Assembly (NCBI RefSeq): GCF_054482595.1
Contig: NZ_CM137008.1
DNA length: 64,000 nt
Strand: one strand, 5' to 3'
Made by a program: the position numbers. Positions 42,001 through 45,000 of the stretch are shown piece by piece. Position 1 is the stretch's first letter. Each line of letters starts with the position of its first letter.

Positions 42001-45000
42001 CGCCTGTTCAATACAGGACAACAGTGCTGCCGAATCCGTTTTATCCTCATTGTTGTCAAAGATAATTCCGGATTCGCAGTCGATATTGTCCTGCAGCCAC
42101 GCAATCAGAATATCCAGTGCGGTTTCCGTGGTTAATGATTTCATGTTGCTCCTGGTTACCAGTTGAAAGTGGGTAAACCCGGCAGGCATTCAGCGCTGGC
42201 ATCCAGATGAATGAGACTGACACCATAACGTCGGGTAAGTGTGACAACCAGACGGCGGAACGTTTTTGACAGCCCCAGGCGCTTAAGCCGCAGAACCGGA
42301 TACGGCCACGCATCAGTACGTAACAGATAGCCGCTGCCGGTAAAATGAATCCATTCTGATTCACCGAAGTCACTGGTCTGGTGTGACAGCGAGTACAGCC
42401 AGGCGTTGTCCGTTTCCGTGATATGTGCGGTACTGCAGTGTATACCGGTCAGGACAGCAAATGGTGGCATGCAGTCTGTTGAGGCCCGGTCAGATGCATC
42501 AACAACACGAAGGGAGTGGCCATTATCACAGACCACGTTAATCAGTTCAGCGAGATTAACACCATCGACGTCAACGACAATGCGTCCCATGTTCAGTGCC
42601 TGCACGTTAATGCTGTCGGCTTCCAGCGTCAGGGCCAGTTTCATTGTTTCGCCTCCGGATGTTTCCCCTGGGTAATGTTATTTACCGTTCTGTAGTTATC
42701 GCGGGTCATCAGGCCGGTTGCCCTGCGAGCCCGGAGAATATCAATACTGTTTATTAACTGAGAGCGGGTACAGGCGCTGAATCCCGGCTGGTCGGTACGT
42801 ATCAGTGCGTATTTTTCAACGAGAAAGTTCACCGTATCACACAGTGAAATGCCAGCTTCAATATGCTGCTCAATCACACGTTCATCGGCGAACGGTGTGT
42901 CATTCAGTGTGAGGCCATAGTGCTGGTCCAGCAACCGGGACAGCAGTGTCTGCCAGATGGTGACGGGAGGCGGGCAGCGCGATGCCTCCCGTACATGCGT
43001 GTCGGGTAATGTTTTCATACTGAAGATTTTCCTGATATGCAGAGATGAAAAATGGAAAAGTGGCGTGGTGAAAACACCAGGCCGGAGCAGAAGGTTATTC
43101 CGGAGAGTTAATTTTTCATTTCGGGTGTCGGATAAACAGCCAGATAAACGTAACCACAGGAGCCGAGGGTGTCGGCTTCACAGGTCAGCCCCTTCGCATA
43201 CAGTGTCACGGTATGCTGATGGCGGGGATTCAGTTCACCGCTGGTGAGCATGAGCTCCAGTTGTTTCATCAGCAGCGGAAAGGCCTGGTCCAGATGGTAC
43301 GCATCCGCGTCGCTGAACCGGCCTCTGATACCGGCGCGGTCGGCAAGGTAATGCAACTGATTGCCCTCCTGCACCAGACGGGCGCCGAAACAGGGCGTCA
43401 CGGTGCAGGGTAGTCCCCACCAGGGACGGTCATGATTGTCATCGGGATGCGTTGTCCCGGAGAGTGTGTCTGACACGATAAAATCCTCACAGAAAATCGG
43501 TGAATGATAGTTTAACGATGACGGGTCAGCCGGCGCGCAGACCGGCTTCGGTGAAGGTGTATTCGTTGATGAGTAGGGCCTCATCCACAGCGGCGTCTGA
43601 GGTCAGCCAGTCGTACTCGTTTTCCAGTTGACGGTACAACCAGAAGGCCAGGCCGCGCAGGGCTTCGCTGACAGCGGCTTCCGCATCGGTTGTCATAGTC
43701 TGACCAGTCGGACTGTTCTGGGTGACGGTGATATCCATGCTGTACGGATGGCAGTAGCGTCCCCTGTGGTGGATTTCAGCCTGCAGTTGCCAGAAGTTAC
43801 GCTTTTGCACCGCCTGCAGGGCATCCGCGATACGATGAAGTTCATGCTCCTGTGGGGCATACTTCCGGATTCTTCTGACTGTCGCTGGCTGCCAGTGCCA
43901 GCGTCCTTCAAAACAGGCTCCGTCCCCCTGGCTGCAGAATCCGCTGAACCAGATGCTCGGCTCCTCCATAAACCTGCCGTTGCTGAGCCGGAAAACGCGC
44001 TGGCGGAGGTCAATTCCGAAAATGCCACAGACCTCCCTGAAGTCTTCATACACGTTTTCATACCAGTTGCTGTCAGCATGATGCTGACGGTACCCGTCGC
44101 GGGCTTTTTCCTGTGCGGTGGAGGATAGCTCATTCAGTGTATACACGGTGGTGGTGATAATTCTGTTCATCAGAATTCCCTTCCTGGCTCAGTTCAGGGT
44201 GACGCTCATCAGCCGGACATACGGGCCAAAACTGTCCTTACGGCGTTCTGCAAACACGGCCAGTACACCGGGAATATCCTGCACTTCACGACCGGTATAC
44301 GCTTCAGTGCTGCCGTGCCAGCGGTATTTGCCGGTGCAGAACGGAAAAAGACGGGATGCAGGATGCTGTTGGTGAATACGCATGGCTTCACCACGGGTGA
44401 TGATTTTCATAGTGGGATACCTCTGAAGACAGAAGATAAAAGTGAAAACAGGTGTGATGTGGTTGTGACGGTGACGGGTTAAAGCAGACCATGTTCGGCA
44501 AAGGAGAAAACCTGGCTGCCACCGACTATCAGATGGTCCGGCACCCGGATATCCACCAGGCCCAGTGCCTGTACCAGACGTTCCGTGATAAGGCGGTCTG
44601 CCTTGCTGGGTGTGACTTCACCGGACGGGTGATTGTGTGTCAGCACCACAGCAGCGGCATTGTGATACAGGGCGCGTTTAATCACTTCACGGGGATGGAC
44701 TTCCGTGCGGTTGATGGTGCCGGTGAAGAGGGTTTCACCGGCAATCAGCTGATTCTGGTTGTTCAGATACAGCACCCGGAACTCTTCACGCTCCAGTCCC
44801 GCCATGTTCAGAATCAGCCATTCTCGTGCCGCACGGGTGGAGGTGAAGGCCACGCCGGGTTCATGAAGATGGCGGTCCAGGGTTTTCAGGGCCCGTTGAA
44901 TGAGGCTGCGCTCGCCGGGCGTCATCTCTCCGGGCAGAAAGGAAAGCTGTTGCATTGTACTTCTCTCCATTCAGTCGATGATGCGCATAATGGCGCTGCA

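What the first reader, a model, noticed from the sequence alone, without database searches (positions are those of the whole stretch)
43526..44170. Uncharacterised 214-aa gene between the DUF987-like gene and the antitoxin
In the CP4-type modules I know, the YeeT-like gene is followed directly by the antitoxin. Here an extra, well-formed gene (RBS, start overlapping the upstream stop, sequence ..IWFSGFCSQGDGACFEGRWHW..) sits between them. An alternative 166-aa ORF lies on the opposite strand but lacks any translational signal. The gene may be a cargo addition to the toxin-antitoxin neighbourhood, such as an immunity, anti-defence or regulatory protein.
Basis: inference. Interest (0 to 1): 0.45.

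Follow-up and report, generated by a model that had tools for sequence, protein, structure and literature searches.

The report
Conserved island gene lost from K-12
The 214-codon gene is real, but it is an ordinary, ancestral member of this kind of E. coli genomic island (K-12 lost it by deletion), and it belongs to a very widespread protein family of mobile elements and phages whose function has never been tested.

Summary
The ORF at 43526-44170 (- strand) is a real, intact gene. It has a good RBS and dN/dS of 0.15-0.34 among E. coli alleles. An identical protein is already in RefSeq, named 'hypothetical protein', 'antitoxin of toxin-antitoxin stability system' or 'DUF8835 domain-containing protein'.

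It is not an extra cargo gene. About 36% of complete E. coli genomes (1942 of 5426) carry it in the same slot. Modules without it keep remnants of it: the 3' 109 nt in one class, and the start codon plus 8 codons in K-12 CP4-44. So it is ancestral and was deleted at least twice.

The family is very large (3742 clusters at 50% identity). It is about 60% identical between E. coli and alphaproteobacterial ICEs and plasmids, where it sits in co-directional arrays with ParB-like, ArdC-like, RadC, DUF932 and SSB genes. It also occurs in lytic and jumbo phages, often in terminal repeats.

A toxin-antitoxin pair lies next to it in only 4 of 80 loci from other species, so it is not TA-specific. The legacy 'antitoxin' name has no support.

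The AlphaFold model is very confident (pLDDT 96), but the fold has no solved or annotated relative.

My best guess is a host- or defence-interference factor used when a mobile element establishes itself. This is inferred and untested. The finding is ordinary as a finding; the family is a fair candidate for experiments.

The parts
43526..44170 (-). The 214-aa gene (DUF8835 family; legacy name 'antitoxin of toxin-antitoxin stability system'; PHROG 5162). 24.9 kDa, pI 5.6.
   Evidence: ORF. A 100% identical CDS, WP_001774605.1, is annotated in strain cq9. Full-length match to phrog_5162, E 1.4e-35. 3742 family clusters. dN/dS 0.15-0.34. AF2 pLDDT 96.2.
44178..44185 (-). Ribosome-binding site AGGAAGGG, 7 nt upstream of the ATG. 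It lies inside the 18-nt spacer that follows the DUF987 stop codon.
   Evidence: Read from the sequence.
44189..44410 (-). Upstream neighbour: DUF987 (YeeT-like) gene, 73 aa.
   Evidence: ORF. RefSeq annotation of the identical module. PF06174 on the homologous module.
43108..43476 (-). Downstream neighbour: cbeA, type IV antitoxin (GTG start, 122 aa). The longer 158-aa ORF that starts at 43584 overlaps the end of the 214-aa gene and is not the annotated start.
   Evidence: Pfam PF06154, E 3.9e-55. RefSeq annotation. GAGGA RBS before the GTG.
42641..43018 (-). cbtA toxin gene (CbtA family), 125 aa.
   Evidence: ORF. RefSeq annotation. PF06755 in the homologous module.
44479..44970 (-). RadC-like JAB-domain gene (YeeS / YfjY-LfgB type).
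   Evidence: NCBIfam TIGR00608, 147.6 bits, above its cut-off. RefSeq annotation.
44971..45456 (-). Antirestriction gene (PF03230; the K-12 homologues are yfjX/lfgA and yafX).
   Evidence: ORF. RefSeq 'antirestriction protein'. PF03230 in the homologous module.
45548..46366 (-). DUF932 gene, the first gene of the co-directional block.
   Evidence: ORF. RefSeq annotation. PF06067.
41947..42644 (-). DUF5983 (42156-42644) and DUF957 (41947-42189) genes, the distal end of the block.
   Evidence: ORFs. RefSeq annotation.
46406..46435 (-). Terminator-like hairpin (13 pairs followed by a T run) upstream of the DUF932 gene. It marks the upstream boundary of the block.
   Evidence: Consensus scan only.
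41893..41919 (-). Terminator-like hairpin after the DUF957 gene. It marks the downstream boundary of the co-directional block.
   Evidence: Consensus scan only. The homologous K-12 genes yfjXY-ypjJ-yfjZF are described as one operon (PMC10846083).
43628..44128 (+). Opposite-strand 166-aa ORF, rejected as a gene.
   Evidence: TTG start and no RBS. Interrupted by stop codons in 2 of 5 E. coli alleles.

Best explanation
The gene encodes a soluble cytoplasmic protein of a large, strongly conserved family carried by mobile elements. The newest Pfam calls the family DUF8835; PHROGs calls it phrog_5162. It is a standard, ancestral gene of the CP4-type island block: DUF932 - antirestriction - RadC - DUF987 - [this gene] - CbeA - CbtA. 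It is probably co-transcribed with that block. In K-12 and many other strains it has been removed by deletion.

The block is the enterobacterial version of the co-directional 'establishment' arrays of conjugative elements, which carry SSB, ParB-like, ArdC-like, DUF932, RadC and large methylase-helicase genes. The same family is also carried by lytic and jumbo phages among small early genes.

Most likely (inferred, not shown), the protein acts on a host component when the element or phage enters a new cell. That would make it an anti-defence or host-interference factor. It would work through the invariant Q-G-D-G-A loop, which may form a binding or catalytic site together with the conserved Y139/H141. 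It would act independently of the neighbouring toxin-antitoxin pair.
For: Shown:
- The gene is intact and under purifying selection.
- An identical or near-identical CDS is annotated in RefSeq.
- It is present at >=80% coverage in 1942 of 5426 complete E. coli genomes, while the DUF987-cbeA module is present in 4868.
- Modules without the gene keep either its last 109 nt or its ATG plus 8 codons. This includes K-12 CP4-44, compared with the orthologous site in strain 21366.
- There are 3742 family clusters at 50% identity, and relatives in 546 species genomes.
- The E. coli protein is 56-61% identical to alphaproteobacterial copies.
- Same-strand neighbours counted in 80 loci: an upstream ~139-aa gene in 70, ParB-like in 56, a strawberry-notch-type methylase/helicase in 54, Toprim in 43, RadC in 40, ArdC-like in 40, DUF932 in 10. 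Any TA pair was found in only 4.
- Annotated plasmid examples show SSB - DUF932 - RadC - ... - this gene and ParB - ArdC-like zincin - ... - this gene.
- In the one locus with a relaxase in reach, the gene lies upstream of nikA and the relaxase and is transcribed towards them.
- 100 phage records carry it, many inside direct terminal repeats. One example is the 6th gene from the left end of phage Muenster.

From the literature:
- Leading regions of conjugative elements are enriched in anti-defence genes, SSBs, methylases, TA genes and many uncharacterised families (PMC11541004).
- The homologous K-12 block is one operon, and its RadC-like protein LfgB degrades a host antitoxin (PMC10846083).
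Against: - No functional data exist for any member.
- There is no hit in PADLOC (a library of defence, not anti-defence, models), NCBIfam or the local Pfam.
- The fold has no annotated relative, so structure gives no clue.
- The protein is only mildly acidic (pI 5.6), so it is not a classic DNA mimic.
- Position relative to oriT, the formal 'leading region' criterion, could not be established.
- In enterobacteria the gene always touches the TA pair: before CbeA in E. coli, and between CbeA and CbtA in Salmonella and Klebsiella. This keeps a TA-linked role alive.
- These islands are largely cryptic, so the gene may be retained for a host-level function.
Confidence: 0.45

Rival explanations
1. 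The gene is a third component of the CbtA/CbeA type IV toxin-antitoxin system: a modulator, a second antitoxin or an adaptor that tunes toxin activity or links it to a trigger.
For: - In every enterobacterial module examined the gene is immediately next to cbeA and upstream of cbtA. It lies before CbeA in E. coli and between CbeA and CbtA in Salmonella and Klebsiella, with an ATGA overlap to CbeA.
- A natural in-frame fusion of the gene to CbeA exists in E. coli genomes with an intact cbtA downstream.
- In Rhodobacterales plasmids the gene directly precedes a different TA pair, MbcA/RES.
Against: - The three K-12 TA modules lack the gene. CbeA/CbtA function was defined in K-12 (my own knowledge: Masuda et al. 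2012).
- 76 of 80 loci from other species have no adjacent TA. Phage copies sit among small genes of unknown function, with no annotated toxin-antitoxin genes beside them.
- There is no profile similarity to CbeA.
- CbeA is also found sporadically fused to DUF987, DUF5983 and CbtA, so fusions in this block carry little weight.
- TA genes are generally enriched in such regions (PMC11541004).
- The AF2 model of the fusion gave no information.
Confidence: 0.15
2. The gene is a housekeeping factor of the element itself, for example in DNA processing, replication priming or recombination of incoming single-stranded DNA. It would work with the neighbouring ParB-like, RadC, Toprim or SSB proteins, possibly as a small enzyme using the conserved Q81/D83/Y139/H141 residues.
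For: - It shows conserved synteny with ParB-like, RadC, Toprim, SSB and DUF932 genes.
- In 70 of 80 loci a conserved ~139-aa partner gene overlaps its start, which suggests a complex.
- Polar residues are nearly invariant across 106 sequences.
Against: - The gene is retained under purifying selection in E. coli islands, which carry no identified transfer or replication genes in the parts examined.
- It has been lost repeatedly without loss of the rest of the block.
- H135, Y139 and H141 are not conserved in all phage and plasmid homologues; only Q-G-D-G-A, L15, G52 and Y179 are.
- The fold resembles no known nuclease, primase or recombinase.
Confidence: 0.2
3. The legacy annotation is right: the protein is a RelB/Phd-type antitoxin 'of a toxin-antitoxin stability system', or a 'YeeU-like antitoxin'.
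For: Only names support this: RefSeq and UniProt product names and a phage annotation.
Against: - No Pfam antitoxin family matches the protein or any of 106 relatives.
- NCBIfam gives no hit.
- There is no profile similarity to CbeA.
- No cognate RelE/ParE-type toxin gene lies nearby, and there is usually no toxin gene at all.
- The phage label is explicitly copied from a BLAST hit to a mis-named E. coli entry.
Confidence: 0.02
4. The gene is a decaying, functionless passenger of cryptic islands, which would explain why it is so often deleted.
For: - It has been deleted at least twice, and many truncated or partial copies exist.
Against: - dN/dS is 0.15-0.34 among intact E. coli alleles.
- The protein is about 60% identical across bacterial classes and is found in thousands of clusters, including lytic phages.
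- It is intact in 1942 complete genomes.
Confidence: 0.05

Closest known systems
DUF8835 / 'antitoxin of toxin-antitoxin stability system' protein family (PHROG phrog_5162)
   Same: - Full-length homology.
- RefSeq gives E. coli alleles about 95% identical in DNA these names, and gives the identical copy in strain cq9 'hypothetical protein'.
- It has the same length of about 214 aa and the same G-F-x-S-Q-G-D-G-A motif.
   Different: Nothing differs: it is a typical member. The family itself has no tested function, and its older name is misleading.
CbeA/YeeU type IV antitoxin (PF06154), the gene next door
   Same: It is an adjacent gene of the same block, probably in the same operon. It is occasionally fused in frame to CbeA. 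It is sometimes annotated 'YeeU-like'.
   Different: - It has no sequence or profile similarity to CbeA.
- It is nearly twice the size.
- It is found mostly without CbtA/CbeA.
Anti-restriction and anti-defence proteins of conjugative leading regions and early phage regions (ArdA, ArdB/KlcA, ArdC, PsiB, Ocr)
   Same: - It occupies the same kind of genomic niche.
- It is co-oriented with an antirestriction (PF03230) gene in the window and with ArdC-like genes in 40 of 80 loci.
- It is shared between conjugative elements and phages.
- It is a small stand-alone protein (PMC11541004).
   Different: - It has no homology to any of them.
- Its fold is different and unmatched.
- It is not strongly acidic.
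- No activity against any defence system has been tested.
RelB/Phd/YefM type II antitoxins
   Same: Only the inherited product name.
   Different: It has no domain match, no ribbon-helix-helix or YefM-like fold, and no partner toxin.

Membership tests
DUF8835 / phrog_5162 family | Full-length sequence homology to family members | tested here: met
   phrog_5162 matches at E 1.4e-35, residues 1-210 against profile positions 1-195 of 201. There are 1668 and 3742 homologues, nearly all about 210 aa. RefSeq names close alleles DUF8835. The DUF8835 HMM itself is not in the local Pfam copy, so this rests on RefSeq's naming and on homology.
DUF8835 / phrog_5162 family | Conserved core motif S-G-F-x-S-Q-G-D-G-A-x-F-x-G and C-terminal Y-x-F-T-E-x-G | tested here: met
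   Both motifs are present in the window protein. G82, D83 and A85 are invariant, and Q81, G84, F206 and G210 are >=90% conserved, in an alignment that reaches phage homologues at 28-35% identity.
RelB/Phd/YefM-type antitoxin (implied by the legacy name) | Match to an antitoxin domain model | tested here: not met
   There is no Pfam hit even at E<=10 for the protein. None of 106 relatives hits an antitoxin family. NCBIfam gives none.
RelB/Phd/YefM-type antitoxin (implied by the legacy name) | Ribbon-helix-helix or YefM/Phd fold | tested here: not met
RelB/Phd/YefM-type antitoxin (implied by the legacy name) | Adjacent cognate toxin gene, conserved across the family | tested here: not met
   A TA pair is adjacent in 4 of 80 loci (1 CbeA/CbtA, 3 MbcA/RES), and in each case that pair has its own antitoxin.
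RelB/Phd/YefM-type antitoxin (implied by the legacy name) | Neutralises a toxin | not testable with these tools
   This needs co-expression assays.
CbeA/YeeU type IV antitoxin (PF06154) | Sequence or profile similarity to PF06154 | tested here: not met
   Pfam gives no hit for this protein, whereas the neighbouring gene hits PF06154 at 3.9e-55. hhalign of the family profile against CbeA gives probability 0.2%.
Anti-defence / establishment gene of mobile elements | Carried by conjugative elements, islands and phages rather than core genomes | tested here: met
   The gene is variably present in E. coli islands. It occurs on 112 plasmid records, 41 of them typed conjugative, on 100 phage records, and in an ICE-like context with a relaxase and a T4CP.
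Anti-defence / establishment gene of mobile elements | Clustered and co-oriented with known anti-restriction or establishment genes | tested here: met
   In the window an antirestriction (PF03230) gene and a RadC gene lie upstream on the same strand. An ArdC-like gene is present in 40 of 80 loci, ParB-like in 56 and RadC in 40, all on the same strand. SSB and DUF932 are present in plasmid examples.
Anti-defence / establishment gene of mobile elements | Located in the leading region (next to oriT, on the side away from the relaxase, transcribed towards oriT) | tested here: inconclusive
   Only 1 of 80 loci (plus L004) has a relaxase within 8 kb. In L004 the gene is upstream of nikA and the relaxase and points towards them, as expected. 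No oriT was mapped. The conjugative plasmid pLX01 has no relaxase within its first 50 kb, which contain the gene.
Anti-defence / establishment gene of mobile elements | Homology to a catalogued anti-defence family | not testable with these tools
   No anti-defence HMM library (dbAPIS or AntiDefenseFinder) is available here. PADLOC, which holds defence models, gives no hit.
Anti-defence / establishment gene of mobile elements | Inhibits a defence system or raises establishment frequency | not testable with these tools
   This needs conjugation and phage assays.
DNA-mimic anti-restriction proteins (ArdA/Ocr type) | Very acidic protein (pI about 4) with a DNA-like charge pattern | tested here: not met
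   pI is 5.6, with 29 D+E against 22 K+R.

The most novel reading that the evidence does not exclude
DUF8835 is a new anti-defence or host-takeover protein family with a fold of its own. It is shared by ICEs, conjugative plasmids, CP4-type islands and lytic or jumbo phages, where it lies in the terminal repeats (which I assume enter the cell first). It would act on a conserved bacterial target, which would explain about 60% identity between E. coli and alphaproteobacterial copies.
Probability: 0.35. Interest if true: 0.6.

Novelty: already known. Interest (0 to 1): 0.3.

Why it matters
As a finding in this window it matters little. The gene is already catalogued, common, and a standard part of the island type. 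The apparent oddity arises because K-12, the usual reference, has lost it.

Three things are useful to know:
- The K-12 yeeT-cbeA spacer is a deletion scar of this gene.
- The widely propagated names 'antitoxin of toxin-antitoxin stability system' and 'YeeU-like antitoxin' have no support and are being copied into phage annotations.
- The family is unusually well conserved, very widespread on conjugative elements and phages, and has a confidently predicted fold with no known relative. That makes it a reasonable, cheap target for anti-defence or establishment screens.

Tried and rejected
- **Domain and family libraries gave no hit.** Pfam-A found nothing for the protein or for 106 relatives. 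NCBIfam, PADLOC and PDB sequence and profile searches also found nothing.
- **Profile-profile comparisons were negative.** I compared the family with CbeA, and the conserved alphaproteobacterial upstream ~139-aa gene with CbeA and with DUF987.
- **AlphaFold of the natural fusion to CbeA was uninformative.** The aim was to see whether the two halves dock. A first mixed alignment (A4) was misaligned by MAFFT. With alignment A5 the CbeA half was not folded (pLDDT<50, pTM 0.61). The result speaks neither for nor against an interaction.
- **Literature searches found nothing on this family.** I searched for DUF8835, the legacy name, the PHROG id and several WP accessions.
- **The opposite-strand 166-aa ORF was rejected**.
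- **The 'cargo addition' reading was rejected** because of the deletion scars.
- **A DNA-mimic role was rejected** on charge.
- **No tRNA gene lies in the window**, so the island's integration site could not be located.
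Full report

The window has an ATG ORF of 214 codons at 43526-44170 on the - strand. It contains the quoted peptide IWFSGFCSQGDGACFEGRWHW. Directly from the sequence:
- The upstream DUF987 gene ends with TGA at 44191-44189.
- An 18-nt spacer follows. It carries AGGAAGGG (44185-44178) 7 nt before the ATG at 44170-44168.

The gene ends with TGA at 43528-43526. The antitoxin gene cbeA starts 49 nt further on at the GTG at 43476, preceded by GAGGA, as RefSeq annotates it. Pfam confirms it as PF06154 (E 3.9e-55). The longer 158-aa ORF from 43584 is an artefact of ORF extension.

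The opposite-strand 166-aa ORF (43628-44128, TTG start) exists, but it is broken by stop codons in 2 of 5 E. coli alleles. The 214-aa frame is intact in all five and shows dN/dS of 0.15-0.34. The 214-aa frame is the gene.

**2. How common is it in E. coli?**

Megablast of the gene against 5426 complete E. coli genomes finds it at >=80% coverage in 1942 genomes, almost always on the chromosome. One genome (strain cq9) has a 100% identical copy. RefSeq calls it 'hypothetical protein', 'antitoxin of toxin-antitoxin stability system' or, in recent assemblies, 'DUF8835 domain-containing' protein.

A query spanning DUF987 through cbeA hits 13,249 places in 4868 genomes, with a median of 3 per genome. 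It covers >=80% of the query, meaning the gene is included, in 1928 genomes. The gene is therefore a frequent but variable member of the module.

In all annotated examples the order is DUF932 - antirestriction - RadC/JAB - DUF987 - [gene] - CbeA - CbtA - DUF5983 - DUF957 - DUF4942. All three K-12 modules (CP4-44, CP4-6, CP4-57) lack it.

**3. Addition or loss?**

Modules without the gene fall into two classes, and both carry scars:
- In the '58%' class (for example strain WP5-S18-ESBL-07 and O157:H7), the DUF987 stop is followed after 6 nt by the last 109 nt of the gene (codons ~179-214). The normal spacer and cbeA come next.
- In the '50%' class, which includes K-12 CP4-44, the spacer keeps part of the RBS, the ATG and the first 8 codons (ATGAGCAGAATTATCGCCACTACC, MSRIIATT). 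It then jumps to the sequence just upstream of cbeA.

Strain 21366 carries the intact gene at the orthologous CP4-44 site between yeeA/sbmC and the island. K-12 aligns to that strain up to 25 nt into the gene and again from just after its stop.

The gene is therefore ancestral to the E. coli module and was deleted at least twice. It is not a cargo addition.

**4. How wide is the family, and what does it travel with?**

- The word-indexed search returns 1668 homologues.
- The exhaustive search returns 3742 clusters at 50% identity, 372 of them below 1e-30. Nearly all are stand-alone proteins of about 210 aa.
- PHROGs has the family as phrog_5162, function unknown.
- A scan of one genome per species finds it in 546 species. 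The best 80 are 79 alphaproteobacteria plus Salmonella diarizonae, all 56-61% identical to the E. coli protein.
- E. coli, Salmonella/Klebsiella and alphaproteobacterial copies are roughly equidistant from one another.

I counted neighbours in those 80 loci using my own ORF calls and phmmer. All the neighbours below lie on the same strand as the gene.

| Neighbour | Loci (of 80) |
|---|---|
| ~139-aa gene overlapping the start (no Pfam match) | 70 |
| ParB-like | 56 |
| ~1450-aa strawberry-notch-type methylase/helicase, just downstream | 54 |
| Toprim | 43 |
| RadC | 40 |
| ArdC-like zincin | 40 |
| DUF2958 | 33 |
| DUF6878 | 15 |
| DUF932 | 10 |
| MbcA/RES toxin-antitoxin pair | 3 |
| CbeA/CbtA (the Salmonella locus) | 1 |

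Annotated plasmids show the same picture:
- H-NS, SSB, DUF932, RadC, RadC, DUF6878..., the 139-aa gene, the gene, MbcA, RES.
- ParB, zincin (ArdC-like), PAPS-reductase-like..., the gene.
- A 20-kb co-directional array on a conjugative RepABC plasmid.

In Tistrella the gene lies 2 kb upstream of nikA, the relaxase and the T4CP gene, and it points towards them.

The family is also in 100 phage records:
- Caulobacter and Brevundimonas jumbo phages.
- 121Q/PBECO4/RaK2/K64-1-type jumbo phages.
- Acinetobacter Saclayvirus.
- Pseudomonas phage Lana.

It often lies inside the direct terminal repeats and among small genes of unknown function.

**5. Structure and conserved residues**

With a 106-sequence alignment, AlphaFold2 gives pLDDT 96.2 and pTM 0.89. 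The model is one alpha/beta domain in which helices pack on an antiparallel sheet.

- Foldseek against AFDB50 returns only family members.

Structure therefore gives no functional clue.

The conserved residues are as follows:
- Across 106 sequences, E14, L15, G52, G77-F78, Q81-G82-D83-G84-A85, F87, G89, Y139, H141, W177, Y179, F206 and G210 are >=90% conserved.
- When 28-35% phage and plasmid homologues are added, L15, G52, G82, D83, A85 and Y179 remain invariant. The histidines do not.

The Q-G-D-G-A loop between two strands is the best candidate for a functional site. The protein is mildly acidic (pI 5.6).

**6. Relation to the toxin-antitoxin pair**

For a link:
- In enterobacteria the gene always touches cbeA. 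In Salmonella and Klebsiella it even lies between cbeA and cbtA, with an ATGA overlap to cbeA.
- A lineage of E. coli carries an in-frame fusion to CbeA (stop changed to Leu, linker PEDFIV) with an intact cbtA downstream.
- In Rhodobacterales the gene precedes another TA pair.

Against a link:
- The TA pair exists without the gene in K-12.
- The gene exists without any TA pair in 76 of 80 loci, and phage copies sit among small genes of unknown function with no annotated TA genes beside them.
- There is no similarity to CbeA.
- CbeA is also found fused to DUF987, DUF5983 and CbtA.
- TA genes are generally enriched in leading regions (PMC11541004).

My attempt to test docking with AlphaFold on the natural fusion failed because the CbeA half did not fold.

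**7. Most likely role**

The identity of the gene is shown. It is a conserved DUF8835/phrog_5162 protein that belongs to the co-directional DUF932-to-DUF957 block. That block has no promoter-like site inside it and is flanked by terminator-like hairpins at 46435-46406 and 41919-41893. The homologous K-12 genes yfjXY-ypjJ-yfjZF are reported as one operon (PMC10846083).

The function is inferred. The gene's company includes anti-restriction, SSB, ParB-like, RadC (a K-12 homologue, LfgB, degrades the host antitoxin MqsA) and methylase-helicase genes. It is shared between conjugative elements and the early or terminal regions of lytic phages. It is also strongly conserved across bacterial classes. 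All of this points to a factor that acts on a conserved host component when foreign DNA establishes itself, that is, anti-defence or host interference.

I give this reading 0.45. A TA-linked role gets 0.15, an element-housekeeping or enzymatic role 0.2, and the legacy 'antitoxin' reading 0.02.

**8. Comparison with what is known**

The protein is a plain member of an already catalogued but uncharacterised family. It fails every testable criterion for RelB/Phd-type or CbeA-type antitoxins. Its 'antitoxin' names are inherited labels. One phage annotation states that its label comes from a BLAST hit to such a mis-named E. coli entry. It resembles known anti-restriction proteins only in genomic niche.

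**9. Verdict**

The 'extra cargo' interpretation is wrong in direction. The gene is ordinary for this island type and already known as a sequence family, so interest is low to moderate (0.3). The family as a whole has no experimental study that I could find. It would be a sensible candidate for anti-defence screens.

Noticed in passing
L003 3040-3112 (E. coli K-12 MG1655, yeeT-cbeA spacer); compare window 44171-43477: The 73-nt K-12 CP4-44 spacer is a deletion scar. It keeps the start codon and the first 8 codons of the 214-aa gene, which leaves a 16-codon mini-ORF, MSRIIATTGPFLADFL*. A second, independent scar type (the last 109 nt of the gene) occurs in other strains, including O157:H7.
   Followed up: yes
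L030 7633-9086; L100/L101 6610-7996; L102 6094-8081: In the Salmonella and Klebsiella michiganensis CP4-like modules the gene lies between the antitoxin CbeA and the toxin CbtA (order DUF987 - CbeA - gene - CbtA). In the Salmonella loci (L030, L102) its start overlaps the CbeA stop (ATGA). Salmonella L102 has two CbeA paralogues in front of it.
   Followed up: partly
L098 / L099 3001-4032: A natural in-frame fusion of the 214-aa protein to CbeA (343 aa) occurs in E. coli genomes with an intact cbtA downstream. The stop codon is replaced by Leu and the linker is PEDFIV, which is the translated RBS spacer. About 15 near-identical fusion clusters share the same junction.
   Followed up: partly
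L087 6589-7008, L088 4823-5233 and 68 further loci (alignment A2): A conserved ~139-aa gene (MADYFTHFSCLLDVGT...) overlaps the start of the 214-aa gene in 70 of 80 loci from other species. It has no Pfam match and no detectable similarity to CbeA or DUF987. It may be a partner protein.
   Followed up: partly
window 46435-46406, 46739-46713 and 41919-41893 (- strand): Three strong terminator-like hairpins (10-13 pairs followed by a T run) bracket the co-directional DUF932-to-DUF957 block. No promoter-like site was found on the - strand inside the block.
   Followed up: no
RefSeq records NZ_CM190148.1, NZ_CM181339.1, NZ_OZ547117.1 and others: The product string is written 'DUF8835 domain-containing pootine', apparently a typo. 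The local Pfam copy does not contain DUF8835.
   Followed up: no
L095 3055-3666 (Klebsiella phage Muenster gp006); also phage K64-1: The phage homologue is labelled 'YeeU-like antitoxin' only because of a BLAST hit (E 8.65e-8) to a mis-named E. coli entry. This is annotation error propagation. The gene lies 3 kb from the left end, inside the 20-kb terminal repeat.
   Followed up: yes
L096 (Acinetobacter phage vB_AbaM_CP14): The homologue is labelled 'RNA polymerase binding protein'. Its neighbours are 50-70-aa ORFs labelled 'DNA polymerase', 'clamp loader' and the like. The annotation of this record looks unreliable.
   Followed up: no
window 45457-45547, compared with L001 8013-8258: Strain cq9 is 100% identical over the gene. 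However, it has an extra 246-nt hypothetical gene between the DUF932 and antirestriction genes and an EAL-domain gene next to DUF4942, and the window lacks both. The islands are mosaics.
   Followed up: no
L104 1420-2369 (K-12 CP4-57): K-12 yfjX and yfjY are now named lfgA and lfgB. The RadC-like LfgB is reported to be a protease that degrades the host antitoxin MqsA, and yfjXY-ypjJ-yfjZF is reported as one operon repressed by MqsA (PMC10846083).
   Followed up: partly
(CbeA homologue list): CbeA is found sporadically fused to DUF987 (PF06174+PF06154), DUF5983 (PF19419+PF06154) and CbtA (PF06755+PF06154). Gene fusions by small deletions or frameshifts seem frequent in this block.
   Followed up: no
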